This document shows, one piece after another, positions 2,450 to 34,317 of a stretch of DNA of 64,000 nt. Position 1 is the first letter of the stretch; each line of letters starts with the position of its first letter. Below the pieces are notes generated by a model. That model had not been told where the DNA came from. It ran no database searches and saw only the letters and a program-made list of their open reading frames with translations. The position numbers were made by a program, and so were the translations under genes. Source of the stretch: Rhizophagus irregularis (lineage: Eukaryota); the NCBI RefSeq assembly GCF_026210795.1, contig NC_089432.1:5208001-5272000 (forward strand). The letters are read 5' to 3'.

Positions 2450-2749
2450 AATGGCAGCTCCCCTGCTAATAAGTCAATTTCTTGTTAATTTACTAAATTT
2501 TTAATAAAAAATCTTTTAGGATAATGTAGTGTAAACCCACGCATAATCACTATCGCAAAAGCTTTGATTACAATGCTATATGTTATTATAATTGATGATA
2601 TACTGTAAATATTGAATGTTTAAATCTTTAATGTTGCAACGAAAAAAAAGTACTTTCTTTTATTTTACATTTTTAAATATAGCAAGTGATTAACTACAAT
2701 ATAAAATTAATAGTGTTATGCAATATCAGTGCAATTAATTATAAACTAG
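2450..2749 (-). ncRNA. Conserved 3' block downstream of the orphan ORF (dispersed motif family, copy B)
   Basis: Motifs read on +: TGGCA..CCC..GCTA (2452), ATACTGTAA-N5-GAATGTTT (2600-2621), AACGAAAAAA (2638), collinear with 33902-34242; TATAGCAAG..TTA..AC (2678-2697) matches the reverse complement of 4376-4395. Confidence 0.5.
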
Positions 2750-3694
2750 TTAATAGCGAAACAAACCTATTTTCCTATTTTTCTTTTGATACTTTTTCTT
2801 ATAATATTTATCCTTTTTCCTACGTCCTTTTTTATTATATTTTGCAAGAATTTTAGCATAAACTTGTTGTGCTAAAAGGTACACTCTTTCCTTAACATAA
2901 TTTTCTCGTTTTTCTATAATTGTTTGTTCTTTTATATCAACAAACTTATCATGTAAAATTGAGAAATTTTTAATTTGTTTATCAATATCTGCAAGAGGTA
3001 CCCTATTGCCTATCATATTATTTATAAAAACAAATCTATTACATTGAGCTAAAAAATTATCAAATTGATCATTAATATTTTCAAAAAGTCTTGGAGGTTC
3101 ATATTTTGATTCAATAAGTATATAATTAGAAATTTCCAAATATTTGTTTTTAATACCATTACTTTTAGGAAACTTATGATCTGGTTCAGAAATAATCTGA
3201 CAAGAACCATTTACTTGTCGATTATTAAAGGATAATTTATCAGGAATTTCATAATTTATAAAATCATTAGTTAAACTTTCATGATTTTTAGAACCACTTG
3301 CAGGAGTTTCAGAGTTTAAAGGACTATTAGCGTGAGTTTCATATTTTATAGATACACCGCAATTATTGCCAGTAGGAGTTCTTAGAAAATTTTCAGGAGG
3401 TTTAAATTTTCTAAAACCGCTGACTTGATCTTGTTTTCTCGAACTAGTGCTTCCATTTTGTTCTTGATTATCATAGGAAAATTTATCTTCATCAATACTG
3501 ACAAGATTTTCATATTTTCTAGTATACTCTTTTAAAAAGTTGGAAAGTCCATTAAATTGGTGGTTCATTTTTTTTTCTACGTATTGAGTCGTCAAAAAGT
3601 CGATGTATATATTTGATATCATGTTGTACAATAAATTATTTACGCTGATTACGCCAATTACGTGATTAGTCTGATTTCGGTGATTATTACTCAT
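2750..3694 (-). CDS. Intronless orphan protein (314 aa; true start may be the downstream MNHQF), basic C-terminus
   Basis: 945-bp open frame in very AT-rich DNA; no recognisable domain; followed by a 3' block sharing motifs with other loci in the window. Confidence 0.6.
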   Translation of the reverse strand: MSNNHRNQTNHVIGVISVNNLLYNMISNIYIDFLTTQYVEKKMNHQFNGLSNFLKEYTRKYENLVSIDEDKFSYDNQEQNGSTSSRKQDQVSGFRKFKPPENFLRTPTGNNCGVSIKYETHANSPLNSETPASGSKNHESLTNDFINYEIPDKLSFNNRQVNGSCQIISEPDHKFPKSNGIKNKYLEISNYILIESKYEPPRLFENINDQFDNFLAQCNRFVFINNMIGNRVPLADIDKQIKNFSILHDKFVDIKEQTIIEKRENYVKERVYLLAQQVYAKILAKYNKKGRRKKDKYYKKKYQKKNRKIGLFRY

Positions 3695-4350
3695 TACTTA
3701 TTGATTGCTAGTCCCGTGATGTAACAATTATGTGATTTAATATGTAATTTGATTATAGGAACGCGAAGTATATTTTTTTTTCGTTCTGCCTGTCTAAATT
3801 ATTAATATAAAACTGAAGCAATAAATTATCAACGTTAACCTTTTCTTCACGACACAAATAAAGGTTATAATTATCGGAAAATTTGGACACTTACCATAAA
3901 GGTTAAAATAAAATAAAATATACAAATCGCGTCTCATACAAACAAACCAGATTTACTTTAAGCGGACCTTGATATTATGCACATGCGCAAAATTTTATGC
4001 ATGATCATATGATCAATAATCATGAGCCAGTCATTTCTTCATGACGCGATTTTTGATTTTTTTATACTCTGACTATAGCAAACTCCGTGGAAAAAAAAAC
4101 TTTTGCATGACATTTTAAATTTATATAAGATGCCTCTCCATCCGAAAATTTTTTTTAAAAAAAATTCCATCCTTCTCTTCTCCCTCTTTCCAGTATTACA
4201 CCCATAGTAACCTATCTTTTTATTTCTACATCGTAGTTTTCTTATCCTTTTGGCGTTTCAAACACTACGCAAAGCCACGAAAGATATTTTTCAAAGTTTC
4301 TCTCTTAAAAATTATTTTATTTTTATTTAACTTTATTTTGTTTATATATA

Positions 4351-4790
4351 AGATACCTCACTCACACACTTTAGTGTGGTATAAGCCTTGCTATAAGTAA
4401 ACTCGTTCTTAGTATGATGTATGGGTGGAAGTAAAAGGAGGTAAGAGACCTGTTCCTTACTGTTAACACACGCGTCATCTCAGGATACCGAATCATTATA
4501 ATTTAATGGTTAAATTATAATGAGGGTGCCGCAAAATCTTCTCTTACACGGCAGGACCATGATAAGGATCCTCATACGCATACTTTATTGGAGGTTGGAG
4601 GAAAGTATGTTAAGTGGGGGTGGTTGTATCTGATTGGCGGTCCCTAATAAGGGTGACGTTAAATTCCTTAATTCCTATTCATTTTCTTGATAAACTATTT
4701 TATGAATTTCCTTTTGCTAATTAATCGTTACAGTGATCCGTGTTACTCATACATCGGTGCTCTTTAATTTTATAGGTATTCTCAGTCAAT
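4351..4790 (+). ncRNA. Candidate large structured non-coding RNA (copy A)
   Basis: Nested helices: 4416-28/4743-55, 4430-40/4708-18, 4441-48/4540-47, 4493-4506/4510-23, 4569-75/4614-20, 4578-86/4602-10, 4554-58/4639-43. Their non-Watson-Crick pairs are G-U on the + strand. No ORF. Confidence 0.6.
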
Positions 4791-5199
4791 TTCAGATCAA
4801 TAATATGATTGATAAGTCAATAATTTTATTATATTTTAATTTTATTTATTGTTTCTGAAAGCACACAGTTTCAGCATTTTTAGCAAAAGATGTACAGTAT
4901 ATTAATAAAATTGCTAGAGAAAATTTGCTTTGTTCAAGATTCTAAATAAATATACAAAAATAATTTGATAAGTATACTTGATATAATCACTTGAATTTTT
5001 ATATAAATAAATTAAATCGTATAGTCCAAATTATAAATAATTTCTACTATGTTATGAATATAACTCAATATTTTGAGTAATAATTTCATTCTAAAACTAA
5101 AATCAGATAAACTTAGTAAAATGTAAAATTAAACAATTAAATCGAAAAATATTTTATACAGTTAAATTATATTTGGTCGTACTGTACCATTTCCAACAC

Positions 5200-5935
5200 A
5201 AATACATTATCACGAGTATATAGTAAATTAGTACTGTACGGTAATACAAATTAGTACGGACGTTCAAAAAAAAAATTTTAATTTTTCCGTACTCAGACGG
5301 ACCTTTAAAAATAAATTTGATTTTTTCGTACTAATATTTTACATTGTAACATCATGTGATCAAATTTTTGAGATGAATATGTTGTACACAATATTTGAGT
5401 AATATAATAATTGTGTAATGATCAATCTGATTAATTTATGAATTTATATAATGATTTTAACGTTCTATCATCGTAAATATCTCTTTTAATTTTTTACTTC
5501 TTTGCCACATAATACCAAAAATTATATTTTGTAAATGCTAAATATGGTTGTCTAATTTATATATAAAAATATGATAAAGAATTGAAAAAATTAATTATAA
5601 ATAAACTAATAAAATTTAATTATTATTTTAATGGCCAGTTTTATTATTATGGAGCTGAATATATTAAAGGAATGAAAATTTATTAGCTTATCTTCAAAGA
5701 ATTTTTTTAATTTTATAATTTAACATTTAATTTTATAAGATATTTTGTTAAAAACAATATGTCAAAGTTGCACAAAAATACAAAAATGCAAAGTCGTACG
5801 ATTGTACGAAAACTTAAATTAGTACGAAAATTTTAAAACTTTCGTACGTACTAGTACAAAAAAATTGATTAGCTGTAAATGTACGTACGAACAAAAAAAA
5901 CACACGTACGTACCAAGTTGCGTTAGCGTACAGTC
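5200..5935. mobile_element. Degenerate MITE-like element with GTACG subterminal motif clusters
   Basis: GTACG/CGTAC clusters at 5178-5330 and 5793-5930 around an AT core; TIR and TSD not resolved. Confidence 0.3.
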
Positions 5936-7228
5936 ATATTTTACTCAATACCTCATTATCACTCAAGTACTTTCTGGATCAAATCGTCCCCATCAAGTTG
6001 ATCGTTCTAATAAATATGATGTTTTTATGAAAAGAACACTTTTTTTTGCATTAAAACCTTTTTTTTTAAAAAAAAAAAGTATGAATATTTCTCTTTTTTT
6101 TAAATATGGTAAAAAAAGGGTCTTTACATAGTATAAAAAATTTCACTAATTTTTCGCATGTAAAATAATCTTGTTTCTCTTATTAGGTGTATAATGACCG
6201 ACACAACCAAAGTTTCCTAGGGATACAGACATTTGAAACTTTATGGTTATTAATATAGGAAATATAGGCGTTATCTGTCTCGAATGAGTCTAAAGCCTGT
6301 AGGTTGCTCAATACTTTATATGTGTCTTTTTAACAAAATATTTAATAAATTAATAAATATATCATGTACTGTACATAATATGTAACAATCTCTTAACAAG
6401 ATGATCATTGAGAACGGAAATCTTGATTTTTAATTTAATAATGTTAATTTTAATTTTATTTCTATTTTTATTTTACATTAATTAAGTATTAAGCTTAGTC
6501 CCGGGCCCCAAAGTAGAAATTCTGGAATTGTAGTTGTAGAAGCTCTTGCTTGATAGATTAATAACCTAATATAAATTAAATAAAAAAGATTAACATACAA
6601 ATAAATATCTTAAAAATTTATAAATTATTTTTATCAAAATTACTTTTTTACCAGATTTGCATGCCACAAACAAGTTTTTTTGAAGGCTGTTGTAAGGAAA
6701 GGTACCATAATTGAAACCTCATTCGGAATCAATAGACCTTATATCAAGTCCAACAAGAAAGGCTTGAAGTAACAAGAAATACTGGTAAAATAACTATAAT
6801 ACATTTCTAACTACTGTGCTCGGAGACGTATTCGTGTAAACTTTACTGATACTCTTTCAAGTAATTGTCGGCAATACGATCCTTATCTCCAGAACCTTAC
6901 ATAATAAAATAAATAAAAAACTTTTCTGTAACAATAATAAAATAAATGTATTTAAAAATTACAAAATACTTAGCTTATGAATGATATTTTCTTATTAAAC
7001 AATTATACAGGTTTCATAAAAGAGATTTTCATAAAAGAGAGAGTGAAGAAAAATTTTCGCGTATTAATCGTGAGAAAAAAAATTTATCCACATGATTCAC
7101 ATGACTATCAATATTGACTATTACCTTGTTATAATTGTTTATATAATCAGCTAGGCACAAAAATATGAGTACCGTAAATCACAGTTCACGAAATATATAT
7201 ATATATTTTTTTTCTGATATATATAAAC

Positions 7229-8080
7229 TAGTGCTCCGCAAAATTCGGGTCTAACCCGGATAATTCAATCCGAGTAAATTTTAAATCGGGTCGGTACTAA
7301 CAATTTTAATAACCCGTGACCCGCATGACCCGACCCGTCAGGTCGGGTCATTCATTTCCTTGACTCGAGTTTTGACCCGAATTAGACCCGGATGATCATT
7401 AAAATCACTGATCACATATCGATTACGCATTAATATTGATTACGTTATATAATTTTGTTAGATAAATGTATGAGGTAGTATATCCTCACTTAGCGAAAAT
7501 TGCTAGAGACACCTCGCAATTTTGGGTATGTGTATGAATTATTATTTTAATTATTAACATTACATTAACTAATAAGTTGATTTTGATGATTAATAAAGCA
7601 ACCAGCATTCCAATAGTTTCCAGTTGAACCGATTTGATAGCTGCAATCTTAAAGCAGATAGAATTAGAGCATGCATGTGTTTAAAGTCCTGGCAGATATA
7701 AAGTATAGTCAAATTTCTGTTAAAGCAAGTGATATAATTTCGATTTTATAGTTCAAATATAAAGCAATAAATAAACAGGAAATTGAAGATATCTTTAAAT
7801 TCGTGCTTAGCTTTAGTTTTAATAACAAAAAGTTGTGTAACCTATATGATCATCTTGTAGATCAATTACCTTGAGTTATTGAAAAAATTATATTTGAAAA
7901 AATATTTTTGATATATTACTAAGCATACAGTATATTATCCAATGAAAATTTCGGGTCTAACCCGGGTTATTCGAATTAAATATACTCGGGTCGGGTTAAA
8001 ATCGGATCATTTCTATTTTTGCCGGGTCGAGTCGGATATATTCTCCAAACCCGACCGAATCCGACCCGGTAGGAGCACTA
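7229..8080 (+). mobile_element. Non-autonomous hAT element with remnant of the transposase dimerisation domain
   Basis: TIR TAGTGCTCC/GGAGCACTA; 8-bp TSD ATATAAAC (7221-7228, 8081-8088); CCCGA/TCGGG subterminal repeats; relic YPHLAKIARD-LAI (7481) and IRACMCLKSW (7663-7692). Confidence 0.92.
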
Positions 8081-8959
8081 ATATAAACTAAATATATATA
8101 ATATAGACGCAAGTTTATAAGTCATCTTTTTATTGCTTCAATTTGTCAACTTATTAATAAGAGCATTAAATAGCATTATTAAGTACCCAAGAATTATTAC
8201 TTATTTTGTCATTATGATTTATGAATAGTTAATCAAAAATGGCAAGTGATAAAGAAACACATTTTTGATTTCATTCAATCAAAAAAAAAACATGTACGAA
8301 AGAATTTAATTTTGACGTTCTTTTGAGAGTAAAGAATATAACAAGTTAGGAGTAAATGATTACAGGTATGTTCTAATATTGTATAAATAAACCATAGTTC
8401 AACTTTATAACACTTTTTTTTTATGATTTTAATCCTCAAAATAAATGTATAATTATTTTGTCATCACAGCAACCATTTTTTAACGAACTGATAAGAATTG
8501 AAATGTTTTAGAGTCCTAATATAATATTTTAGTCTTGCAAAACCTTTTTGTGAATTTCTATTTATAAACATTTATTTTAAATATTTTATATTATAGGTTA
8601 TCAGTATGGATTCTTTCCATTAAAGAAATCGAATTATGACAAAAATTCAAGATACAGTAGATGACCATATTTTTAATTCCAGTCAAATCTAGTTATTATC
8701 AATGAAGTCACATGCAGTTTAATATTTATCTTGCTTTGTTGAAGACTTTAAGAAAACTTTGATTTGAAGATTAGAGTTTTTTAGTTTCTTTATCAGATTA
8801 ATTACTAGGAAAACGGAAACCGTTGAGGGTCCGTCGTTTAAAGTGATAAAATGTCTAAAAATAAAGCGTTAAAAAAAATGTGATACAAAACATAAAAGGA
8901 AATAAGCAGGGGTTAAATTATAGTGACGTAGGTGGAAGGAAGGAAAAATACATGGGATA

Positions 8960-9185
8960 AACCGGTACTACAAATTTATCTAGTTCTGTACAATAAATAG
9001 TCATTTGCTACGCTCTTGACAATAACGTTTTCAATTCCTTTAGATACAGTATGTTTTCTTTCAACACAAGAAAAGTTATCACAGGAAGAGAGGAAGCGTT
9101 TGACATATAGGTTGGATAAAAAAAAAGAATGTTGTTATATCATATGACTGTTTTATATACTAGGAAGCAGCGAAAAAAGATAAAC
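8960..9185 (-). ncRNA. Conserved block of the dispersed motif family (copy C), no adjacent ORF
   Basis: Collinear blocks shared with 34014-34243: TCTGTAC, CTACGCT, AGAT-C-GTAT-TTT-CTTTCAAC-CAAG, GTT-TA-CATATGA, CGAAAAAAGA. Confidence 0.6.
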
Positions 9186-9339
9186 CTCGATTTTATTGGA
9201 TGACGTAACGTCGTCACATTAGGAGATAGGATGATCGATCATTTTTCATAATGTGTAGAGCTGTAGACATATATAATCTCCGGACAATAATTATGCTGAA
9301 ATGTGATTAAAAAATGAAGTAACAGGAAATATATTTTCT

Positions 9340-9575
9340 AGTAGTTAAATTAAAAAATTATATTCATTAAAAAAAATTAGTTTTTTTTGTGAACATTCCG
9401 CAAATCTGCAACTATTCTGCAATCCCGCAAATATTCTGCAATTGAATCGCGGTACTTTAGATATTTGTGGATTTGTGGAATATTTGTGAGATTGCGGATA
9501 ATTGCAAGTTGCGGTTCTGCAGATTTTAGATTTGCAAAAGTCCAAATTTTTACTTACGTAAAAGTTCAACTGGGA
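9340..9575. mobile_element. Degenerate small element with inverted CCGCAA/TTGCGG motif arrays
   Basis: CCGCAA/CTGCAA on the left, TTGCGG/TTGCAA on the right, ending CAACTGGG; left terminus not recognisable. Confidence 0.3.
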
Positions 9576-9807
9576 GTGTTTCTGTTTATTTTTATGTTTT
9601 TATAATAAATTTTTTTTATTAATACAAAAATATGTAATTTATAATTACACAAATGAATAATATTTAATTCTTTCATAAAAAAAACATATGCTACAAGCAA
9701 TCATAAAAATGTATAAATATTAAAATTTCTCTAAAAGTTAAAGGTTACAACGTCTTTATGCACACAAATATATTGTTATTTCTAATCATTATGACAAATA
9801 ATATTAT

Positions 9808-11217
9808 CTATATATCCTTTACGATATCTGGCCATGTAATTTCATGATTCCAAAAATCATCATCATAATAATTACATTCAATTATACCTTCTATTTTATA
9901 TTTTTTAATAAAATTATGCACTTCAACAAAACGATGATATAAATGCAAAGTTTTTTTACCTTTACAATTCCAATTATTAAAAAATAATTTTAAAGATTCT
10001 TTATTAAAATACCTAAATCGATCAATGTGAATTTTGTATAAAGGGAGTGGTGCCAATTCAATCAACAAATCCAGAAATTTATCACGATATTTTTCCAAAA
10101 TTAACTCATCTATATCTATTGCTACCAAGTATTGACACTTGATGAAAATATTCTTTAATTCTTCCAAAGTTTCATCTCTGTTTAAAAATACTGTTGCATA
10201 TTTTATATTTGGACAATATCTGTAGATTGTCTGATTATATTCTTTTGCTTGATCATAACTAGGAATTCTAATTTTAATTTTCCAAAGATTTCCATTGGTA
10301 TTTTGTATAATATTAATTACAATATAAAGTGATATTTTATATAACTCAAGTATTTGAAGTTTATAATAACTTGCATCCATTGCGTATTCCTCAAATTTTT
10401 TAATTGGTTCATAATTATTAATATTATCCCCATTACGTATTCTTATGAATTGTAAATTTGTTAATTTTGGAAAGAGAAAATATAAAAAAGATGTATACTT
10501 AGTTGATACCAAATAAATAATTGAATTTACATGTTTTTCTAAAGCCTGAGCAATCTTTTGGCATTCACAATATCCTTCTATATATAAGTATTTAATATGT
10601 TTTTGCATTTCAATTAATTCAACAATTCCAGAAAGATCATAATCATCAAGTTCTATATAAAGTTTTTCTATTGATCTACATATTTGTGCCAATTCATGAT
10701 AAAAATTTTGTTCTCTTATATTACAATATAATTCATATAAATTTGAAAGAGAAATATTTGCTCCTGGATATTGAAATATTGGATAATATATCATATTTAA
10801 ACTTAAACATTTTATAGAACATTCACTAATAAAAAGTTTATAAATTTCTTTCTTTAATATTGAATCATTTGGTAAAACCTTATGAATATCATTAAGATTT
10901 TTACAAAATTTAATATAATTAAATGAAAGTTTTTGCTTTTGAAAATTTGATTTGATGATATAATTATTTTTCAAAAGTTTAATTGAATTATCTGATAAAT
11001 GTGAAATGATAATATTAAAAAATAATTCTTTTTTACAAATATATTTATATGGAGAACTCCATAATATTGGTATCATAATTTCACACCAAAGTTTATTAAC
11101 TAATAAACAATAAAATAGAGATTTTCTATATTTTTTGTTATTGTTTAAATTCATATTAGTGAAATCAATTAGATCTTGAAAAATATAAAAAATGATGTCC
11201 CTATTTAATTTTGACAT
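9808..11217 (-). CDS. F-box domain / LRR-like protein (expanded Glomeromycotina family), 469 aa
   Basis: MSKLNRDIIFYIF...SLFYCLLVNKLWCEIMIPILWSSP F-box signature followed by LRR-like repeats; intact single exon. Confidence 0.9.
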   Translation of the reverse strand: MSKLNRDIIFYIFQDLIDFTNMNLNNNKKYRKSLFYCLLVNKLWCEIMIPILWSSPYKYICKKELFFNIIISHLSDNSIKLLKNNYIIKSNFQKQKLSFNYIKFCKNLNDIHKVLPNDSILKKEIYKLFISECSIKCLSLNMIYYPIFQYPGANISLSNLYELYCNIREQNFYHELAQICRSIEKLYIELDDYDLSGIVELIEMQKHIKYLYIEGYCECQKIAQALEKHVNSIIYLVSTKYTSFLYFLFPKLTNLQFIRIRNGDNINNYEPIKKFEEYAMDASYYKLQILELYKISLYIVINIIQNTNGNLWKIKIRIPSYDQAKEYNQTIYRYCPNIKYATVFLNRDETLEELKNIFIKCQYLVAIDIDELILEKYRDKFLDLLIELAPLPLYKIHIDRFRYFNKESLKLFFNNWNCKGKKTLHLYHRFVEVHNFIKKYKIEGIIECNYYDDDFWNHEITWPDIVKDI

Positions 11218-11599
11218 CTTTTTTTTTTTAGTAAAGAAAATTTACCAATAGTTGAATGCATGATTAATGTATTTTATATAAAAAACATAAAATGTAATGA
11301 ATCTAACACAACTGTAGACCAAATCTGAATATAAATGTAAAAACCAAATATAATGAAACTTGAAAAATTAGTCAAACTGATAAGAATGATCTAGCACAAA
11401 TAATAGTCTAATAATGGCGTATTAGATTATATATAATTAGTTTATATGAATGTGGAATTATCTATGGATAAAAATTACTCATGTGATATATAAATTGTCA
11501 TATCAGCAGTCATATAAAAAAAATTCACCTCAAAATGACCAACATAGTTTTTCGCACTGGATCACGTGCAAGTGCTAGCAAACCATTTATTTTATAATA

Positions 11600-12470
11600 T
11601 TCATTAAAAAAAAAAATAATTAATTTACAAATTTATTAAAATTGTAATAAATTTTCCAGTAAATTTTTATGAAAAGAAAAAAAGATCTCTAACGAAATTC
11701 TTTATTATTTCAAACCAAAATTCTCAATTCCCTCATTAAAAAAATTATTTTCAATAAAATTTTCTATTAAGACTTTCCAAACTAAATTCAAAAAAAGACT
11801 CACCTATAAAAAACTTTTCAACTAACAAAATTATCAAAAAATATCTCCTATTAAAGAAATAATTTCTAACGAAAATCTTTCATCAAAAAAAAAAACAAAT
11901 TTCCTATATAAAAAAAAATTCAAAAAAAAATTTTTACCCATTAAAATAAATCTCAAAAGAATTTCCATATCAAAAAAACTTTCCTTCTATTAAAAAGAAA
12001 ATTCTTTACCGAAATTTTCTATCAAGTTAAAAAATTTACTAACGAAATGATCTATTCAAAAAATATTTTTACCCATTAAAAAAAATTCTCAAAGAAATTC
12101 TTTAAAGAAATTATCTACCAAGAAAAAAAATACCTCTATTAAAAAAGAAATTCCTCTATTAATAAAAAAAATTTACTACCGAAATTTTTTATTAAAAAAA
12201 AAATTTTTCTATTAAAAAAAATGTTCCAAAGAAATCCTATCAAAAAAAAAGCTTTACCTATTAAAAAAAAATCTATCAAAAAATTTTATTTTATAATAAA
12301 AAATAGAAAAAAAATTCTCCACGAAAAATTTTCTATAAATAAAATTTAAAACAAAAAATTTTTAACTAAAAACCTGCTGACAATTTTCTGCCGCCGATCT
12401 GTCAGCAACTCAGTTCTGATTTGTCAACTCGGTGGCAGTCGGTGCTGATCTTTAATTCATGTCACGTAAT
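11600..12470. repeat. A-rich degenerate tandem repeat (AAAT(T/C)TCTATTAAAA-like units) ending in a GC-richer terminal block
   Basis: Many CTATTAAAA/CTATCAAAA units seen directly. Confidence 0.5.
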
Positions 12471-13630: not shown

Positions 13631-13767
13631 TTTTGATTGAGTTTACTTGAGAAAAAATCTTGAGAATTTGATATTTGTTTGATTTCTTTGATTAATTTGA
13701 TTAATTGATTTTTTTTGTTCTTTGAACTCTTTTCTTTTGATGGGATTTTACAAGGAGAAGCCAAGCG

Positions 13768-17539: not shown

Positions 17540-18044
17540 GTTGCACTCTTAACTGGTTACACAAGTAAAATTAATCATTTAATTAAGATGGTTAGAGCAT
17601 CTCTAAAATCAAGTTAAAATGTGCGATGCGAATCGCCTTAAATTTCTCATTTACATATCGAAAAAATAAAATTTCAATTATAATTTTAATTTATTAAAAA
17701 AATATCTGATATACAATTTTTGAAAATGAATTTCTGAATCAAAATTGTAACAACTTATGGTTTAAAAATTGCGTTAAGGTTTGTTTCAAATAAAGTTTAA
17801 GAATATTATTATCATCATTATTTTTATTAAATAACCTTTATTAATATTGTAATATTCACGTTATGTAATTTATTACAATGTAGACGCTTCTAGAACATCC
17901 GCTAAATAAAGCATTTATCTAGTAGATTGAAATTGTGAACACGCTAAACTAAACACATCAAAAAATAAAAAAAATAAAAAAACAAAAAGAAAAAAATTTA
18001 AAAATTGTAAAATCAAGAAAGTAATATACTGAAAGTATAACGCC

Positions 18045-18995
18045 TATTTGATTTCCGTCTGACAGAAATGTTTTTTTGCTAGCCAAAAATGTCTTCTTTT
18101 GTTTGACTAAAATAATCTTCACACCCTTTTCCAACGAAAATAAAATACAACCTTATTTATCAAATTTGTTTACTTTATTGAACGTTTATTCGCTATCAGA
18201 GTTGTCTCTTCGTCCCTGAACTGTCGCTACGCTTTGTTATTTTCGTTCAATTGTTCGATTTCTGATTCCACAACTTTTCCTCTTTCTTTACCTTTGCTGG
18301 CTGAGTCTTCTTTCCCACTAATATTTTCGATACGGTTACTAAAGTCTGAATTTAATTGATTAAATTTATCGACTACTTCTTTACTCGTTAACGCATCTAC
18401 AAATTGTTAGCCCTCCAAAAGAATCTGTGCGTTGTTTGTAAGTGTCTTTTGATATCTCAGCTTTTTGAAACCCATCTTTTCCTATAAGTTCATTTTGTTT
18501 TTTTATCTGAAGTCCTTTACTTAAATCTTTGTTCATTGCTGAGTCATATGTGGCCTTAAATAATTCTTGTTCATCATTAAAATACATTAAAATATATTTC
18601 ACTGTGTTAATTTTAATGATTTTAGCAAAATGCCGATGGCCATCATATTTTTTTATGCAGTCCTTAATAATTGTATATTCATTCTTTTCATTTTCTTGAT
18701 CATTTAACTTTTTGACCGCCTGGTAACTATATCTTTTTTTAATATTCCTAGATGAAATCTTTGTGTCAAACATTCTAAAAAAAAATAAACGTCCCTTTTT
18801 TTGTTATTTTTATATTAGATCTGCCCTTTATGAAAACTGATTCCATATCATTTGTTAAGCGGATTTTTGTTTAGATAATTTATATTTGTAATTTCGTTTG
18901 ACCATTAGTTGATCCACGTAGCCAGATTTTCTGATTCGCTATGTATATATCTGAAAAATCATTAATAAAGTTTCGCCAAATTTAAGCATTTGCAT
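18045..18995 (-). pseudogene. Frameshifted intronless orphan ORF, possibly retroelement-associated; includes track ORF 18381-18773
   Basis: Coding-like sequence continues on both sides of the 130-aa ORF through frameshifts and stops. Confidence 0.4.
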
Positions 18996-22703: not shown

Positions 22704-23905
22704 ATGAATGAAACAAGATTTTCTCATTCCTATTTTCCACAGCACTTTGCCAACCGAAGTGAAGAAAGTAAATGGCAAAAAAGTAAAGAAAATGATATAT
22801 ATGAGCTTGAACGCGCTTTATTTCCTATGGAGCTTCTATGTCAATCTTCTCATCAAGAAAGTAATTTTCAAGAGACAAAGGGAATATCTCTCATGGAACC
22901 TGGTAGTTTTGAAGAGACAGTTCATAAAGATAGAACTAAGAAAAGCATTCCGTCCATTTATGATAAACCTTACACACAACAAAATAAAGAGATTCAGGCC
23001 CAGAGCTTCAGTTTACCTATCACCAGCGAAACTGCCAGAAATAACGAGATTAAATGTAAAAGAACTAAAAGCGGTAGCAAAGATGAGGTCAGAGAATATG
23101 ATGATATTTTAAGGGATAACTCGTGCCCTAACAGAGCAAGAATTGAGTCTATACAAGCATCTATGGGGAAATTATGCAGAATCGGTGTCGTGGGAAGCGA
23201 TGAAAGGACAAAATGGGTATCATGCCGATTTGTACAGCCATGCTATAGAATTGGAAGAGATTGTACTGAGATACCTTTGCATAATGTGTCAGAGGGTCAT
23301 GAATGTTGCAACAATTCATCCATGGTAATCGAAATTATTGCGAGTGAATCCAACCGTCACCAACTTGCAGAATCTGTTAATCAAGGGCCCTGTGAAGTAT
23401 CAAGTCTTACCGAGTGTATGAGGGTAAAAATGGGTTATGGACCAGATCTTTACGATGTTCGAAATTTTGGCTTTAACCATATCATACTTATTGGGAAGCG
23501 AGAATATGGAATAATGTTTTTAGATTGCTATGGTCGAGTTTTTGAGTTAGACAGGATGTCTGATGCACTGTGGCCACTTGGGAATTCTTTGGAAGAGGCG
23601 GCAACAAAACCCTGGACTGGCGAGGTGGCATGGGATGTTGATGAAGATGGGGTTGTTTTTGAATGGGAGTATTGTATGTGTACAAATCTTATTTTTTTAA
23701 CATAATTTTGTATTAACTTTTCTTCTCTCTTTCAGATACTGAAGCTGAACGTACTACACATGATTTTAAACGTGCGGATGATAAGAAACCCTGGAAACTT
23801 GAGGGAGTCTATAAAGAAATCCCGGACAAGAACAAAAGTAAAAAAAAGAAAAGCAAGAAAAGCAAGAAAAGCAAGAAAAACAAGAAAAACAGCACGATTT
23901 TTTAA
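22704..23905 (+). CDS. Two-exon protein with a C-terminal SUKH/US22-like domain and Lys-rich tail (exons 22704-23673, 23736-23905)
   Basis: 333-codon ORF; GTATGT donor at 23674, AG acceptor at 23735; exon 2 in frame; motif IMFLDCYGRVFELD...LWPLGNSLEEA. Confidence 0.6.
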
Positions 23906-24900: not shown

Positions 24901-25199
24901 TATTAAAATCACTGACGGTATCACATGGCGTAATGTTTAGAATACCTATATAATAAACTTTAAATTGTGTAACACAGTTTTCATTGGCCAAAATATCATG
25001 TGATATTACACAATATCTAAAAAAGGCAATTTTATCAACTTGGAAAAAATCGATTTTAGGATCACAAAAAGAAAATTAATTTACTGATTACTCAGATTGA
25101 CCAAAGCTATATATCATCACGTGGCATTACACAAATCCATTTTTTTTTGAAATTTGGATTACGCAAAAATACAAAAAAGATTTGCAGAAATCACCTGTA

Positions 25200-27200
25200 T
25201 CTAATCAAGAACTAGAAGATACGGAAATGATTCCTCCGATAATTATAAATGAAGTAAATGAACAAGTTATAGAAATGATGAGGCGTTAAAACCGATATGT
25301 TTTTTCGCCTTCTAATGACTAACCTAATCTATATGCAGGATGGGATATCGTGACTGACAAAAAAATGATTCGTGATGCATATATTAAAGTTCGTCAGGAT
25401 CCATCCTTCACAAAAGGATTTAAGTTTACCACGAATCCGCATCAGTTTCAGGAAAAAATTATCAAGCCCTTTTAGTGGTTTATTGAAGGCTTAATGTCCC
25501 GCAAATATCAATCTAGCGGTTGGCGAAACTTTTCTCTTTTCGTCAGACTGTAAGCGATCTTGTAAGTATAGATTGATTTTATTGATTTTACAATTTCAGG
25601 ATGTGACGTCTGATTATCTAACAAATCCCTATAAAAAAATTGGATACGTTTTTTATAAAGTTTTTATACGATTTTTTTTCCTTAGAAATAACGTATCATA
25701 ATAGGATACGGAAAAATGCACAATTCCGTATCACTAAAAATATGGTTTGGATACGGAATTTGCACGGGATTTATATGGAATTTACATGATTTGATCACTG
25801 ATTTTATCACGAAATTTATACGATTTGGTCACTGAATTTACTATTTGTATTACAGTTTACTATAATTGTACTTACATAAATCTAATTTTACTTTATTAAA
25901 TTAATAAAAAATAAAAAATAAACAAAGTACAAATACATTATGAAAATTCCTTCCTTATTAAAACCACCTATTGCAACCAAAATTATCTATAAGTTCAGGT
26001 TCATTTGGAGTCAAACAACCTAAAAGAACAAAAAAAAATATTGGAAACAAAACACCCCCTCATATAGTATCTGCAATCGTCCAAGTCACCAAAGGTCAGC
26101 ATTCCTACAAAAAAAGAAGACTCTGAAGCAACAAAACTGAAACAACCTACAAAAAGAAAAGAATCTGAACCCAACTTACAAAAAAACAAGAAAATTTGAA
26201 CTGACCTAAAAAAAGAAAAAAATCCTGAATCATCCTACAAAAAGAAAAGGACTCCCAAACTGATCTACAAAAAAGAAAAAGAAACTGAATATTCTCACAA
26301 AAAAAATCTGCTGGCCTATGAAATTAAATATAAATAAAGAAGAAAGGGGAATAAAGAATAAACCAAAAAAAATATTTTTTTAAAAAGAGAGATAACGAAG
26401 TTAGAAAAGTTAAAAAAAATTTTTTTTTTAAAGAGAGGACGTCAAAGTTAGAAAAATAAAAAATTTTTTATAAAGAGGAAATAGAAATAGAAAGAAGAAA
26501 TTTTTTTTAAAAAAAAAGAAGAGTGGAATAAAAGAAAAAATTTTTTTTTAAGGGAGTGACGAAAAAAAATTTTTTTTCGAAGGAGAGTGACGAAAAAAAA
26601 ATTTTTTAAAGTGAGGTACGAAAAAAAAATTATTTTTAAAAGGGGAAAGAAGAAAAATTTAGAAAAAATACCAAAAATAAGACAAGAGAAAGAGAAAGGA
26701 AAGGAAAGACAGAAAGGAAGATCGGAAGATCAAACTCATCAAAGTAAGGGTTTATATAAAAAACAAAAAACGTATCATAACAAAACGATAAACAATCATG
26801 TGATCTCGTGTTATGATACGGAATTTTTGTAAAATTATCTTCTAAAAATATTAAGTTTAAAAATTCCGTATACATTCCGCATGATTTTCCGTATACATTT
26901 CTTATACATTAGTTTTTTTAAAAAATGTTCAAAAATGAATTGCTTATTAAATATACGGAAATTGTATACGGAATCTATAGAAACGTACATAAAATGTATA
27001 CAAAACGTATCCTTTCCGTATACATATTTCTTATAGGGAATCCTTTTTATTACAGGTCCCTTCACATATTATGTTTATTGGTTTGACGACAATGAAAAAA
27101 CCATTGTATTTAGATATAGATGATGATCAAAAATGGCGTGTTTCTATATGTCAACTAAAGCAATCTTTTTTTTTTGTTTGCTATCCAGTGTCGTATTGAT
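25200..27200 (+). pseudogene. Gene relic with stops, split by the CACTA-type insertion
   Basis: Coding-like segments at 25200-25560 and 27056-27160 with premature stops. Confidence 0.3.
25627..27038. mobile_element. Non-autonomous CACTA/CMC-type element (1.4 kb)
   Basis: Termini CCCTATAA...TTATAGGG; 3-bp TSD AAT; GATACGG/CCGTAT subterminal repeats; A-rich core. Confidence 0.88.
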
Positions 27201-27659
27201 AGTTTTTATTCCAACGAAAATAATAAGGGATTATCCAGTAAGATTTATGATATTTCTCCTTGTCATAATAGCTTCTCTTGTTATCCAATAATCACACCAA
27301 AGGCACGCCTGGATCCTTGAATCACATGCCCAAAAGATCGGCCAGAATTATGCTATAGTGCTGACCAAATTTAAATGTGAATTTACATCAAATTACTACG
27401 CTACCCGACACAATATTTTTTTTTGCAGTGAAAAGTAAAATAAAAAGCGCCAACATACAACCAACTTCTTGGCAATAAAATGGGGTGTAAACTGTAAAGA
27501 AATGCTAACAGATGTTCAACAACCCAAAGTTCTAATTGCTACAGACTACCACCAACAAGCAGACATCTATTTAAAAATCAAACAATCATGGATATCCACC
27601 AGCGCAAATTATATTAGAAAACATTTATCAACACACAGCACGTAATAAAAATAGATACA

Positions 27660-27915
27660 TTCAGATTATTTAGACATAGTCATATTTAGGTTATTTAATC
27701 ATGTAATCATAAAAAATAAATAGGAAAAAGGTGATTTCAAAGGTAAGGAATATAGTAGGAAAAATAAGAATTAGATCATTTAGTCATATCCAGATTATTA
27801 ACAATAATTAACTTTAGATTATTTAGTTATATTTAAACTATTTAGTTACATCTAGTTTATTTAGTTATATTTAGATTATTTAGACTAAATAATATATTAT
27901 ATTATTTAGTCATAA
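27660..27915. repeat. Degenerate minisatellite (TTTAGTCATA/TTTAGATTAT ~10-bp units)
   Basis: Seen directly. Confidence 0.55.
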
Positions 27916-28139
27916 TTGGCTTTTTTTTTCTTTTTTAAATGATAGCTGCTGATCAGCGAACGATTGCCTCACTAATTCATCACACGTGATTAAAGTCAAT
28001 CTGTGTTACTGTGTAATTTTATGTATTACACAATCATGCTGTGTAAATTTAATGAATTAAATAAACTTTTTTTTTCCTCTTCTTTTCGTAATTGAATAAA
28101 TATAACTTTTTCCGTAACAATATTATATATATATTCAAA

Positions 28140-30167
28140 ATGTCAGAAATGAATGAATGGTTTAAGTGGATTGAAGAAGCTATTGCTAAAAAGCATATTA
28201 AATATTACGAGTATAAATATTTTAAAAATATTCAAGAAATTGGTATCGGTAGTTTTGGTAAAGTTTATCGTGCTAAATGGAAAGATTTGCCTAAATATTT
28301 TGCATTAAAATCTCTTCTTAATATTGATGAAGAAGCTATTAAAGAACTTATTAATGAGGTGATTATAAAATATGTATCATAATATAATTTATAATGTTAT
28401 TTTACTTAAATTTTTTATCGTCAATATGTAGATTGAACTTAAACGTGAACTTATTTCTCATGATAATATTATTAATTTTTATGGGATTACTATTTCAGAT
28501 CAAGGTAATAAATAAAACATTATTTTGTATTATTAGTACAATAAATTGATGAAAGTAATAAATTCTTTATTTATTTAGAGAATCAAAGTGATGACATTAA
28601 GAAATATCATTTAGTGATGGAGTACGCTGACAGTGGTTCTCTTAACAATTATTTAAAAGAAAATTTTGAGAAACTTGTATGGGAAGATAAACTTAAATTT
28701 GCTTACCAGTTAGCTAGTGCCGTATCATGCTTGCATGATGAAGACATAATACATCGTGATTTGGTAATTTATTAAATTTATTGATAAAATAATTATTATA
28801 TTAATTATATTATTTTATTATAACTATTTATATTTTATTTCTTTTATTATAGCATTCTAATAGTGTATTAGTCAATCAAGATACTATTAAATTGGCGGAT
28901 TTTGGATTGTCAAAGAGAATCGAAGCGTCAACTAAAAAGAAAAAAGATTTATTTGGTGTAGTTCCTTATATTGATCCAAAAAAATTCAGTAATAAATCAT
29001 ATTCTTTAAATAAGAAGAGTGATGTATACAGTATAGGCGTACTTTTGTGGGAGATATCAAGTGGCAAACCACCTTTTTATTTAGAAGAAGAGTCATATGA
29101 TGATTGTTTATCTGTGCAAATTATGCAAGGTCATAGAGAAACTACTGTTCCTGATACTCCCATTGAATATGTTAAGCTTTATACTGGTAAGTTTAACATT
29201 TTATTTATTTATTTATGAAAATACTATTATACATTAATTGAAAATTTTGATTTTTTTTTTAGAATGTTGGAATGACAACCCAGATAATCGGCCATCTATT
29301 CAAGAAGTTGTTGAAAGATTAGATTGTATAATTAGTAATCAAAAAAACGAAACTATTGATAAGAAAACTGATCAAATGACAAATAAAGATATAGTTTTAA
29401 ATAGTATTGAAGAATCATCACATAGAGAATTATCTCAAATTATTCAAGAATTCAATAAGGTGAATATAAAAGAAATAATGGGATCTATGACATCAATAAG
29501 TGATGAAATTACTTGTTTACCTGAAAATGATTTAAGTGTAATAATTAATAATATTACAGAATTTATTTTTGAAGTGATGAATAAGAGTAATAATCTTAAT
29601 TTATACCAGAAATTTCTTGTATATTTAATTAATCAAAATATAGATCCACAAGAAATTTATGATTGGTTATCTAATAATCAAAATTATAATTCAAATTCAA
29701 TTTTTTTACTTGGATTTTTTAATTATTATGGAATTGAAACAAGTGAAAATAAAAAGTTGGCTTTTGATTTATTTATTAATGCTTCTGAACTAGATCATAT
29801 ATTGGCACAATACTTTGTTGGTTATTGTTATCTGTTTGCAGTTGGAACTTCACCAAACAATTCATTAGCTTTTAAGTATTTTGAAAAAATAGCTAATAAA
29901 GATTGTGCAATAGGACAGGTGTTTACTGGGTGTTGTTATGGTAATGGATATGGCATAAATGAAGAACAAAAACTTGCTTTTCATTGGAATGAAAAGGCTG
30001 CAAATAATGGAAATATAATTGGTATGAGTAATCTTGGATATTATTATAGCATAGGAAGTGGCGTTGAAAAAGATATAGATAAAGCAATTTATTGGTATAA
30101 AAAATCCGCGGAACAAGGGTATGAAAGTGCTCAAAAAAAAGTAGAAGAATTAATGAAAACTGAGTAA
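28140..30167 (+). CDS. Tyrosine-kinase-like protein kinase with C-terminal Sel1 repeats; exons 28140-28358, 28432-28504, 28579-28763, 28853-29186, 29263-30167
   Basis: GxGSFGKV, ALK, HRDLH, DFGLS, SDVYSIG motifs; GT-AG introns keep frame; Sel1 repeats (NLGYYYSIGSGVEKDIDKAIYWYKKSAEQG). Confidence 0.93.
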
Positions 30168-33100
30168 TTTATGTAAACTTAATTGTATAAACCTGTAATC
30201 AATCTATATAAATATAGTGTATACATGTATATATCTTGAAATGTTAATTTACAACTATATTAAATTAATTTACAGATAAATTTCTATGAATCAGCATTAA
30301 TTAATATTATTAAAATTTCTTGTAATGTGGCATTAAATGTTATTTTATGCATTTAAGATGGGTAAAATCATCATGTTCTAATATTCAGTTTATAGTCTTT
30401 AAAGAACTTACATTTTTTATAGTTAGATTATTATACATTCCTTAATTAGTAAAATATTAGAAAATTTACATTTACTTAATTAAATTAAGGACGAAATTAA
30501 CTATAAATACAATACTTATCTTTTTTTTATTCAATTTACAGTAAATTAAATTCATTAACAGAACATTTGATTTTAAACTATTTATTTGCATAAATAAGTC
30601 AACAAATTTTATATCACGAGTAACTCAGTTCATCATCTGACAATATGATCAAAGACGTATGGTCGCATGGTAAAGAGCACTTGGTAGCAATATATATAAA
30701 TGAAAAAATTAGAATTGTCGATAAATTGCTAGGTTTATTGATTGAATTAGTTCCACTCACTTTATTCACATTGTTTTGTTAAAGATTTTAATGAATCTTT
30801 AAAATTATTTCTTAATAGAAGTTATCGTAGTTTATTAATAATATTGATTCTATAATTTTCATCTAATTTTCAACTTTAATCTTTCAAGTTTGACAAAATG
30901 GATAAATAAATAGTACTAGCAATATTTTTTCTTTACTATCATTTGGCTCTAATAACCGTCCATTTCTCCAAATAAAAAATAAATGATTTTTGCTTTCAAA
31001 CGATGGCACTATCACAATAAATATTTTGCCTCATTACTTTGTTTATTTCTTAAAATTTTATAAAAACTAACAATTAAATTGAAATGATTAATACTTATTA
31101 TTGTAACATAATAAAAATGGAACTTACAAATGTAAATGATGGAAATTCTTTTGATCAACATCAAAATTGAAATCTAGTCCTGTATTCCCTGTTGAGAAGG
31201 ATAACAACAAATAAATCTGATAATAACACGTATTTGGACGTATATTTATTCACAAAGGACAAGGACACAAACATGAAATAAGTAAAATAAAAGTATTACA
31301 GAAAATTCAAGATTGCTGCAAAAATTGTTTGATAATATTAGCTTTTATACAAATAATCGTTGATTATGATCACCTGAGTTTTGTTTGTTTTACACGATTA
31401 CACAAAAACGCATATACATATTATAATGGAAATTCAAATCTAATATTTTGGACGTATAGATAGAATCAACTCTGACTAAAAATATTATTGCAATTTTTTA
31501 TTTACAATGGTGGAAATTAGACCTTAAGTATTCATAATTTTTATCGGGTATAGATATTGTTCAACAACAAATATTATTATTGTAATAACATTGCAAAAAA
31601 TGTAAATGATATCATATCACAAAGATTAACAGTGATAGTGATTTGGATGATTTTCTTATTAGTATAAGATATAATCCATTAAAAATAGCTAAATTTGCTG
31701 AGTCCAAGTGTATTGAAGGAAGTTCTCCATTTAAAACTGATAATGTAAAAATATCGATAAATATTTCATTCCATCCAAAATATGAAATGATCCAATATCA
31801 GGTTTATATCAGTAAGGAATTTTGATGAAATATATATCATATTCTATTTACAAATGTAAAAGAAATAACAGAAGGATGACTTAATATTGTACAGTAAATC
31901 AAGCAACTTTATTAGCTGATTTCAAATATTTAACGAATTATGATGAATATTGCACGAGAAAAACTCTCAATATGTTATTAAATTAATAATAAATATATTT
32001 ACCTCTACAAATAAATATTTTTTATCTTAAAAAAAGATGTAATTTTAATCTTAAAATTTATAGTTAGAATCAAATCTACAGTGTACCGTTTGGATGAAAA
32101 GTGCCAAAATTTCGAAAAATTGATTTTTCGAATTTTTGAATTTTAAAATCTCCTTATAAGGAGATTCTCCTTATAAGGAAAATCTCCTTTTATGGCAATG
32201 TAACGTTACACAAATGTCCAAATAAGGAAGTTTGTATTACCAAATTTCCTTTTTTGGACGTTTTGTGTAACGTAGATCTATCCTATAAAAGGAAAATTTC
32301 CTTATAAGGCGATTTTAAAGTTCAAAATTTCGAAATTTCGAAATTTCAAAAAAAAATTACCATAAAAGGAAATTTTTTTTAAGATTTTTGAAATTTTGAA
32401 ATTTCGAAATTTTGAATTTGAAAATCGCCTTTTAAGGAAATTTTCCTTTTATGTAAGGGATCTACGTCGCACAATATTTAATTTATAGTGCCAGCCAGAA
32501 TTATAATCTCCTTATACAGAAATTTTGTTTAAAAATATTTTTTTAACAAATCTGGTGGCTAAACTATTTACCCGAATTCCGAAATCATGTGTTAATATTT
32601 ATTTTTACCAAAAATTGGAGTAATCCTGGCCGGATTTAAGAAAAATATTAATGTAACGTTACACAAATTTCCAAAAAAGGAAATTTTGCTTCTCGCAAAA
32701 AATTGGAAATTTGGTTTCACAAATACTCCAAAAAAGGAAATTTACATGGCGATCACTTAATTCCGGCCAGCATTATAAATTTTTTATATTCTTTATTAAT
32801 TAAAAAAATTTAATTTTTTTTAATAAACTTTTAATTTTTTTTTAATGATCTATATATACTTTATTAATATTAAGTTCATATACCATATAAACAAATTATC
32901 ATAAGCTATATCCATCCAATAGAATGCAATCATCAAAATAATAAACTTTTAATAAACTTTAACTTTTTAATTTTTTTTAATAATAATAATAATTATTATT
33001 ATTATTATTAGCATTATATTAATTTTTTAATTATGCAAAATAATTATCAATTTTACCAATGGCTGGTATCTTCTAATATTTGTATTTGAATAATACATAT

Positions 33101-33879
33101 TTTTAATGAAGAAAAAGCAATATATGATAAAATTTATATTAATAAAATTTTTAATAATTTTTATTTTTTTTTGTTTTTTTATCAAATTTTCAATTATACA
33201 AAATAAATATTTATATTTAAGTGATGTATTAAATATGTTTTTAATGAAAAGAAAACAATATATAATGAATTTATTTAATATTCTTTTTAATAAATTTTTT
33301 TATAATTTTTATATTTTTATTTTTTAATTTTTCTTAAAAAACTTTTTAACTTTTAACTTTTCTTAATTTTTTTGTTTTCTTTTATCAAATTATTTTCAAT
33401 TATACAAAATAATTATCAATTTTACTAATGGCTAGCATTTTCCAATATCTGTATTTAAGCGATATATTAATGTTTTTAATGAAAAGAAAGCAATATATGA
33501 TAAAACTTATATAATATTCTTTTTAATAAATTTTTAATAATTTTTATGTTTTTTTTTAATAAACTTTTTTTATAAACTTTTTAATTTTTCTTAATAAACA
33601 TTTTAATTTTTTTTAATAAGCTTTTTAATTTTTTTTAATTTTTTTTGTTAATTTTTTTATCAAATTTTCAATTATACAAAATAATTATTACTGATTTTAT
33701 TAATAACTCAATATTTGTATTTAAGTGATATATTAAACATATTTTTAATGAAAAGAAAACAATATATAATAAACTTATTTAATATTCTTTTTAATAAAAT
33801 TTTTTATAATTTTTATAGGAATATGTTTTTTTTTCACCTGCAATATGTCACATCTTCCTTTTTTTTATTTTATTTATTT

Positions 33880-34317
33880 ATTTATTTTATTACTAAAAGA
33901 GTGGCAAAACCCAGGCTATTACAAATAGAAGGAGAAAGAATTCGAAAAAACTTAAGACTAATATATGTGTATAGACCTTTGTTCGTCATCCCCTACGGGA
34001 CCTCACTCTTTGATCTGTACTATTTGATAAAGTAGGACTACGCTAATAAATCAAATGGGAACCATAAAAAAAACTATCCGAGAGACTAGCGGCTATCTAA
34101 AAAAAGAAAGTTAAAGGCAATCAAAATATAAAAATTAAGATCCGTATTTTCCTTTCAACCAAGGTTGCCACCTGTGAATACTGTAAGAGGTGGAATGTTT
34201 CACACTATTTTAAGTTGTGTTATACATATGATAACGAAAAAAGAACCGAAAATGTAGATTAAACTACTAGATAAATGTAAAAACTCCAAATAAAAGAGTA
34301 CTAATATATATATATAA
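33880..34317 (-). ncRNA. Conserved structured 3' block (copy D)
   Basis: Sense-strand pairings TTCGTTATC/GATGACGAA, CCACCT/AGGTGG, ATTTGAT/ATCAAAT, AAAGAGTG/CACTCTTT; motifs shared with copies A, B and C. Confidence 0.55.

What the first reader, a model, noticed from the sequence alone, without database searches (positions are those of the whole stretch)
2450..34317. Dispersed family of conserved structured RNA blocks attached to unrelated orphan ORFs
Seen: four non-coding loci share short collinear motifs with diverged spacers. C (8985-9180) and D (34014-34243) share five blocks. B (2452-2697) and D share TGGCA..CCC..GCTA, ATACTGTAA-N5/6-GAATGTTT, AACGAAAAAA and GATTAA(A)CTAC. A (4376-4660, opposite strand) shares CTTGCTATA with B and GGTCCC-loop-GGG(A)TGACG with D. 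B and D lie directly 3' of different intronless orphan ORFs, D is in a TSD-flanked A-tailed cassette, and A and C have no ORF. Inference: a cis-acting RNA module (RT recognition signal, ribozyme or packaging signal) shared by a multipartite retroelement- or virus-like system mobilised in trans. I cannot assign it to a known family.
Basis: partly seen in the sequence, partly recalled or inferred. Interest (0 to 1): 0.78.

Follow-up and report, generated by a model that had tools for sequence, protein, structure and literature searches.

The report
Fungal orphan gene is a retroposon
In this mycorrhizal fungus a broken copy of a very large family of unexplained genes (DUF8211) sits between duplicated target sequences and ends in an A-rich tail, so it was likely pasted in through RNA by another element's enzyme, and short motifs that recur in its flanks and at three other places likely belong to a folded RNA signal for that copying.

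Summary
The window is Rhizophagus DNA. D is a 1,442-bp insertion with a 16-bp target-site duplication and A-rich tail. It carries a chimeric, frameshifted DUF8211 gene (588 clusters at 50% identity, highly basic, confident model without fold match, no RT), and the same deleted form is on record on three contigs of one strain. A three-block core recurs in D's 3' UTR, in D's own 5' leader (new), after a decayed ORF1-like frame (E, new), and at B and C (4 found against 0.03-0.09 expected, patterns chosen after the fact). Pairwise the similarities are within chance, whole-region folding is no better than shuffles, and covariation could not be tested. D's 3' UTR does hold two strong crossing helices. 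A is unsupported. B's ORF looks like a single-copy host gene. Best reading: a non-autonomous, protein-coding retroposon family with a cis RNA signal, built like Dictyostelium TRE5-A.2. A multipartite system is not shown.

The parts
33867..35308 (-). D cassette, 1,442 bp: non-autonomous retro-insertion (5' leader, chimeric DUF8211 pseudogene, 3' UTR, A-rich tail)
33851..33866 (.). target-site duplication, copy behind the A-rich tail (16 bp, ends in T8 on + strand)
35309..35324 (.). target-site duplication, copy before the 5' end
35138..35308 (-). D5: 171-nt leader, begins with an A11 run, holds the core blocks (35240, 35225, 35182) and a GC hairpin (35204-35193) like that of the 3' UTR
34507..35137 (-). 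N-terminal part of DUF8211 (about 210 codons, one frameshift in an A-run near 34616-34626), 86-95% identical to the P0206/P0010 subfamily
34322..34504 (-). C-terminal 60 codons of a different DUF8211 subfamily (92% to P0024; 41% over 34 aa to P0206); junction near 34505
33897..34321 (-). D3: 425-nt 3' UTR with the blocks at 34267, 34240, 34201, 34184, 34159, 34044, 34022, 34002, 33918
33975..34243 (-). predicted long-range helix 1: 34243-34228 with 33991-33975 (-14.3 kcal/mol; core partner as good in 0 of 60 shuffles)
33899..34172 (-). predicted long-range helix 2: 34172-34152 with 33921-33899 (-20.6 kcal/mol; 0 of 60 shuffles); crosses helix 1 (pseudoknot-like)
33867..33896 (-). A-rich tail (TAAA repeats and A-run)
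33818..35582 (.). host of the insertion: about 307-bp MITE-like element with degenerate inverted ends (33818-33866 plus 35325-35582)
   Evidence: high depth over 35275-35547
17880..18142 (-). E (new): module copy with blocks at 18140, 18072, 18032, 17945; spacing from first block to AGCGT 181 nt against 182 in D3
18150..18803 (-). decayed reading frame in front of E; ORF1-like by a weak lead only (Atlas 0.88 and 0.87 to unnamed Mucoromycota clusters, 0.80 to a cluster with zf-CCHC 21% and RRM 19%)
8985..9180 (-). C: probable decayed module copy (five blocks collinear with D3); no TSD, no ORF of its own
2452..2697 (-). B: possible decayed module copy, 53 nt behind the stop of a host-like gene; no TSD
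2750..3694 (-). 314-aa ORF, about one per strain, orthologs in R. diaphanus (87%) and R. clarus (51%): likely host gene, not part of the element
4376..4660 (+). A: GC-richer (41%) non-coding stretch with a 14-bp perfect hairpin (4493-4523); link to the module unsupported

Best explanation
D is a 1,442-bp insertion with a 16-bp target-site duplication, an A-rich tail and a chimeric DUF8211 gene but no reverse transcriptase, so it was likely copied in by target-primed reverse transcription using a LINE enzyme in trans, and the recurring blocks are likely remnants of a cis RNA signal in the UTRs of this retroposon family. Shown: TSD, tail, T-rich target, no RT, two parent subfamilies joined, same deleted form on record more than once, 3' blocks shared by many contigs. 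Inferred: (1) DUF8211 units (leader, one basic ORF, 3' UTR, A tail) are transcribed on their own; (2) the basic protein coats or chaperones the RNA as ORF1 proteins do; (3) a LINE RT/endonuclease recognises the folded 3' UTR (two crossing helices predicted in D), nicks a T-run and primes on the tail; (4) D arose when RT began on one subfamily's 3' end and jumped to another's RNA near 34505, and the chimera then went on moving; (5) C, E and perhaps B are older, decayed copies of the same signal; A is unrelated.
For: TSD, tail and T8 target. N-part 86-95% to P0206-type and 60-62% to P0024, C-part 92% to P0024 and 41% over 34 aa to P0206. Gene models of the same deleted form: 3 accessions on 3 contigs under one strain name and 2 under another. 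Family size 588 clusters at E<=0.001, best 150 all <=697 aa. No RT, RNase H or endonuclease family in 180 members scanned (115, 65) and no fused form at 1450-4140 aa (weak evidence by the tool's own note). Core pI 9.9-10.6, net charge +39 to +50 in 7 of 7 proteins examined, conserved C..C and C..H, AF2 pLDDT 83 and 89 for the N-domain. In 4 of 4 runs laid (of 24 listed), the 3' blocks are far deeper than the variable ORF interior (X6 1459-3764 against 77-86; X3 337-564 against 49-52; X15 714-1550 against 44-73; X1 3336-4043 against 1004-1043), and 6-19 contigs per run carry another letter at 34198 against 1 at 34929 (depth is not copy number). Precedents: TRE5-A.2 (PMC3159450), stringent 3' recognition (PMC3747384), fungal template-switch chimeras with TSD (PMC2104539).
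Against: No RT-coding element with the block was seen (none available). Pairwise similarities of B, C, E with D are within chance in all-pairs tests. The helices of D are not significant in B (5-6 of 60), C (16 of 60), E (17 of 60) or D5 (42 of 60), and MAFFT does not align the copies. Block 2 is not invariant: T>G at 34198 makes up 26-42% of depth in the four runs, and other copies diverge just upstream of 34218. No joint that skips exactly the cassette (empty site) is among those listed (tables cut). The three same-strain gene models could be segmental duplicates. RNA binding is inferred from charge only.
Confidence: 0.5

Rival explanations
1. DUF8211 is the last ORF of a large autonomous LINE. 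D is a 5'-truncated, template-switched piece of it, D5 is the spacer behind the upstream ORF, and B, C, E are ordinary decayed UTR fragments of such LINEs.
For: 5' truncation with TSD is the normal LINE product (established knowledge). R. irregularis has many LINE families (PMC11075540, passages and supplement). E follows an ORF1-like frame (lead only). D5 resembling D3 would fit a module behind each ORF.
Against: No DUF8211 gene model with an RT-type domain in 180 scanned nor at 1450-4140 aa, although models in this genus do join neighbours (P0006-P0009, P0047). D begins with an A-run then a pyrimidine-rich start, which looks like a unit boundary (inference).
Confidence: 0.2
2. Multipartite system: ORF1-like, DUF8211 and RT units are separate or polycistronic RNAs, each marked or cut by the same pseudoknotted module, possibly an undescribed self-cleaving ribozyme, as hammerheads punctuate Terminons.
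For: Core on both sides of D's ORF and behind a different, ORF1-like frame. Crossing helices in D3. Terminon precedent (PMC6431247, passages).
Against: No Rfam ribozyme match at E<=10. No conserved fold across copies. D5's core starts about 65 nt inside the 5' end, not at it. No RT unit seen.
Confidence: 0.13
3. Only D is a real element; B, C, E and A resemble it by chance in 75% A+T DNA, and D was moved by relaxed poly(A) recognition like a processed pseudogene of a host gene family.
For: All-pairs tests; fold z-scores; 119 of 119 metagenome matches to the 17-base two-block pattern showed no DUF8211 or window homology, so such short motifs arise by chance.
Against: Multi-block recurrence 4 against 0.03-0.09; D5 found blind above all 40 shuffles; D3-E spacing 182 against 181 nt; 3' blocks deeper than even the most conserved ORF bin in all four runs.
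Confidence: 0.11
4. DUF8211 units are segments of an RNA virus or viroid-like agent (DUF8211 as nucleocapsid) that LINE machinery has written into the genome many times.
For: Basic protein of unmatched fold, extreme family diversity.
Against: No match in viral structure predictions (best E 0.13 and 0.47) or IMG/VR; all named relatives are Rhizophagus chromosomal gene models.
Confidence: 0.06

Closest known systems
Dictyostelium TRE5-A.2 (non-autonomous AB-ORF1-BC derivative of TRE5-A.1; PMC3159450, passages read)
   Same: One ORF and no RT, large internal loss, mobilised in trans, a module present in both 5' and 3' UTR, structured 3' end proposed as RT signal.
   Different: ORF is DUF8211 with no shown relation to ORF1; hundreds of diverged families rather than one derivative; autonomous partner unknown; no tRNA gene nearby; predicted structure is a long-range pseudoknot, not a 54-nt terminal hairpin.
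Stringent LINE/SINE pairs sharing a 3' tail (e.g. Mg-SINE/MgL, SINE2-1_BG/Tad1; PMC3747384, passages)
   Same: Conserved 3' sequence on non-autonomous elements, TPRT hallmarks.
   Different: No tRNA-derived head, protein-coding, blocks spread over about 350 nt, sharing with an RT-coding LINE not shown.
Chimeric retrogenes of Magnaporthe grisea (PMC2104539, abstract and outline only)
   Same: Two different RNAs fused, flanked by one TSD (14 bp there, 16 bp here).
   Different: Both parts come from one protein family, and the chimera appears more than once.
Terminons / Penelope-like elements of bdelloid rotifers (PMC6431247, passages)
   Same: Unusual ORFs punctuated by a recurring RNA motif.
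   Different: No hammerhead, no telomeric repeat, has TSD and A-rich tail, interstitial.

Membership tests
TPRT-mobilised non-autonomous non-LTR retroposon | target-site duplication of about 7-20 bp | tested here: met
   16 bp, exact, abutting both ends
TPRT-mobilised non-autonomous non-LTR retroposon | 3' A-rich or simple-repeat tail and T-rich target | tested here: met
   TAAA repeats and A-run; target ends in T8
TPRT-mobilised non-autonomous non-LTR retroposon | no RT of its own | tested here: met
   cassette fully accounted for by DUF8211 pieces and UTRs
TPRT-mobilised non-autonomous non-LTR retroposon | dispersed copies with different flanks, empty site | tested here: inconclusive
   3 + 2 gene models of the same form, flanks not available; no exact empty-site joint listed
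TRE5-A.2-like ORF1-only derivative | ORF homologous to the partner LINE's ORF1 | tested here: inconclusive
   no Pfam, PDB or fold match
TRE5-A.2-like ORF1-only derivative | module duplicated in 5' and 3' UTR | tested here: met
   weakly: D5-D3 matched or beaten by 3-9 of about 1000 segments; blind hit above 40 shuffles
TRE5-A.2-like ORF1-only derivative | 3' end shared with an autonomous RT-coding element | not testable with these tools
   no genome or AM-fungal loci obtainable
SINE | tRNA/5S/7SL-derived head, non-coding | tested here: not met
   ARAGORN 0, Rfam nothing at A-E, carries an ORF
Stringent LINE 3' recognition element | covarying stem-loop across family members | tested here: inconclusive
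   helices significant in D only; copies too few and not alignable
Terminon / Penelope-like | hammerhead ribozyme at unit ends | tested here: not met
   no Rfam match at E<=10
Terminon / Penelope-like | 3' telomeric-repeat complement | tested here: not met
   D ends in an A-rich tail
Known small self-cleaving ribozymes (HDV-like, twister, hairpin) | family fold and catalytic core | tested here: inconclusive
   no Rfam match; by-eye fits to recalled consensus folds failed; diverged forms not excluded
Fanzor/TnpB with omega RNA | RuvC fold | tested here: inconclusive
   no such row in fold searches
Fanzor/TnpB with omega RNA | DNA-transposon ends | tested here: not met
   long TSD plus A-rich tail

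The most novel reading that the evidence does not exclude
Arbuscular mycorrhizal fungi host a split retroelement system: a new-fold RNA-binding protein (DUF8211), an ORF1-like protein and an RT travel as separate units, each tagged, and perhaps cut out, by one pseudoknotted RNA module of an undescribed class; this would explain hundreds of 'orphan genes' and part of the unclassified repeats.
Probability: 0.17. Interest if true: 0.85.

Novelty: new variant of a known kind. Interest (0 to 1): 0.52.

Why it matters
About two-thirds of R. irregularis repeats are unclassified and many high-copy genes are orphans (PMC11075540, PMC8647823, passages). If D is typical, one of the large orphan families is mobile-element cargo rather than host genes, its product is a confidently modelled basic protein without a known fold, and its 3' UTR gives a direct handle on how AM-fungal LINE enzymes choose their RNA. 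'DUF8211' is in 0 papers of the library; Rhizophagus with non-LTR retrotransposon and ribozyme, and Glomeromycota with self-cleaving ribozyme, also gave 0. The curated TE library of PMC11075540 was not in its supplement and was not seen, so the element may be listed there as LINE, SINE or unknown.

Tried and rejected
No genome held. Rfam at E<=10: 9 weak rows, none at B, C, D or E, and none inside A. DUF8211 loci in viral contigs and GTDB: none. Sequencing runs: no RNA holder listed, so expression was not tested; only D (33000-35700) was laid, on 4 of 24 runs, so copy number of A, B, C and E is unknown. Atlas for P0024 200-600: no usable hit; the Atlas look-up for B's ORF did not complete. Fold searches of the 436-aa model: PDB best E 1.3, BFVD 0.13, VIA best Z 3.1, rmsd 3.5, 74 aligned; N-domain: BFVD 0.47, VIA not run. 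Absence of a match does not prove a new fold. PDB sequence search 0, NCBIfam nothing useful. MAFFT of five copies gave no usable alignment, so no covariance model was built. Resemblances to U6, U3 box B/C, hammerhead, hairpin, HDV, twister, group I and RNase P/MRP consensus (all recalled) were tried by eye and did not fit. A second 5' helix upstream of the core was not better than shuffles in any of 5 copies. Sliding fold z-scores: isolated windows at -2 to -3.2 among about 110, several on the opposite strand, not taken as evidence. Earlier notes of the scan: nothing on this genome, motif or protein.
Full report
Setting. The window is about 75% A+T and its proteins have their named relatives in Rhizophagus: an arbuscular mycorrhizal fungus. 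No genome is held and no related locus could be fetched from viral, prokaryotic or metagenome collections. The analysis therefore rests on the window, protein relatives, and contigs of four sequencing runs laid on D.

Observation. Pair by pair they are not more than chance gives in such DNA: in all-against-all chain tests no A-D, B-D or C-D pair passed the shuffle background (B-D rank 1692 of 3000). Against real segments C-D was matched by 1-10 of 986, B-D by 31-66, A-D by 69-86. As a recurring set they do stand out. A model of three blocks taken from B and D found, blind, the 171-nt leader of D itself (33.9, best of 40 shuffled windows 29.8); E and C scored 27.5 and 24.1, inside the shuffle range. 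A four-block model ranked D3, B, E, D5, C as its first five (58.4, 47.7, 36.3, 34.5, 34.5; shuffle best 35.4). Two-, three- and distance-bound patterns occur 4, 4 and 3 times against 0.09, 0.03 and 0.10 expected; these patterns were written after seeing the copies, and I had noticed E by eye before the pattern was relaxed to hold it. D3 and E keep the same spacing from the first block to AGCGT (182 and 181 nt). A shares only a GC hairpin motif with D and is in no model's top list.

Structure. No region folds better than its shuffles as a whole. They cross, which a nested fold cannot score. The matching helices in B, C, E and D5 are not significant (5-42 of 60), and the copies do not align, so conservation of structure is untested. 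Rfam has nothing here.

What D is. D spans 33867-35308 between exact 16-bp repeats, ends in an A-rich tail, and sits at a T8 run inside a roughly 307-bp MITE-like element. These are the marks of target-primed reverse transcription (established knowledge). Its ORF is not an orphan but DUF8211 (PF26638 as precomputed; the local Pfam copy gave no such hit). It is a chimera: about 210 codons 86-95% identical to one subfamily, with a frameshift, joined to 60 codons 92% identical to another subfamily, while each parent is only 60-62% or 41% like the other half. That fits an RT template jump, as described for Magnaporthe (PMC2104539, abstract). Gene models of the same deleted form are on record three times on three contigs under one strain name and twice under another; flanks are unknown. 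In all four runs laid, the 3' blocks are much deeper than the variable ORF interior and deeper than the best-conserved ORF bin, and many more contigs overlap them. The tool warns that depth is not copy number, and the same table shows that block 2 varies at 34198 and that other copies diverge upstream of 34218. No exact empty-site joint was listed.

The protein. DUF8211 has 588 clusters at 50% identity; the best 150 are at most 697 aa. None of 180 members scanned carries an RT, RNase H or endonuclease family and no fused form was found at 1450-4140 aa (weak). The 350-aa core has pI near 10 and net charge +39 to +50, conserved Cys/His, and models with pLDDT 83 and 89 for the N-domain, yet matches nothing in PDB or BFVD. 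RNA binding is my inference from charge and setting.

The other loci. B's ORF occurs about once per strain and has orthologs in R. diaphanus and R. clarus; no TSD bounds it. It looks like a host gene with a possible old insertion behind it. C has no ORF or TSD of its own and lies 628 nt behind a 469-aa ORF. E follows a decayed frame whose only lead is ORF1-like (Atlas scores under 0.9). A is a GC-richer stretch with a 14-bp hairpin and is left unexplained.

Mechanism. Most likely (0.5) DUF8211 units are non-autonomous, protein-coding retroposons; the protein packs the RNA, a LINE RT recognises the folded 3' UTR and inserts at T-runs; C, E and perhaps B are decayed copies of the signal. Shown: insertion hallmarks, lack of RT, chimerism, recurrence of the core. 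Inferred: stand-alone transcription, protein role, RT recognition, structure. Rivals: terminal ORF of an ordinary large LINE (0.2), multipartite or ribozyme-cut system (0.13), chance plus relaxed retroposition (0.11), endogenised virus segment (0.06).

Comparison. The closest plan is Dictyostelium TRE5-A.2: one ORF, no RT, moved in trans, a module in both UTRs, an essential 3' hairpin (PMC3159450, passages). D works like it but is not a member: different protein, unknown partner, no tRNA target. It is not a SINE, not a Terminon (PMC6431247, passages) and matches no Rfam ribozyme. Stringent 3' recognition is reviewed in PMC3747384 (passages). R. irregularis TE papers (PMC11075540, passages and its one supplement; PMC8647823, passages) list LINE and SINE families and much unclassified repeat; the passages seen do not describe this element, and their libraries were not seen. 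Searches that found no description: (0 papers) and the listings.

Verdict. Observation partly confirmed, interpretation partly supported. A new variant of a known kind, interest 0.52; the split-system reading remains open at about 0.17.

Noticed in passing
window 32081-43255 and 36397-41159: Nested DNA transposons: a MULE with long inverted ends (MULE domain E 2.7e-19) inside a TIR element with an AT-rich repeated interior, which also holds the MITE and D.
   Followed up: partly
window 25950-26750 (-), similar decayed stretch near 1300-1900: T-rich element whose translation resembles the odd C-terminal read-through of DUF8211 model P0016: possibly a second kind of DUF8211 3' trailer or a SINE-like family.
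   Followed up: no
window 35142, 34301, 33958: A 15-nt motif (CTAATATAT... on +) lies just before D's start codon, just after its stop and near its 3' end.
   Followed up: no
proteins P0006-P0009: Gene models that join a piece of B's ORF to sequence that looks like LINE pol (one is named RNase H type-1 by UniRef): a second, disrupted copy of B's gene beside a LINE.
   Followed up: no
window 4376-4660: A is 41% GC with a perfect 14-bp hairpin and no ORF; may be a separate ncRNA or repeat.
   Followed up: partly
window 9808-11217 and about 44394-44750: 469-aa intronless ORF (looks F-box/RNI-like, recalled; no Pfam hit) with a decayed inverted paralog.
   Followed up: no
window 28092-30167; 51994-52341; 56665-64000; 22704-23705: Kinase plus Sel1-repeat gene; integrase-core fragment; large multi-exon gene without Pfam hit (RNF213-like by recall); 333-aa ORF without family.
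   Followed up: no
L026, L057, L081: Chance matches of the motif that lie between CRISPR-like repeats in metagenome contigs; unrelated.
   Followed up: no
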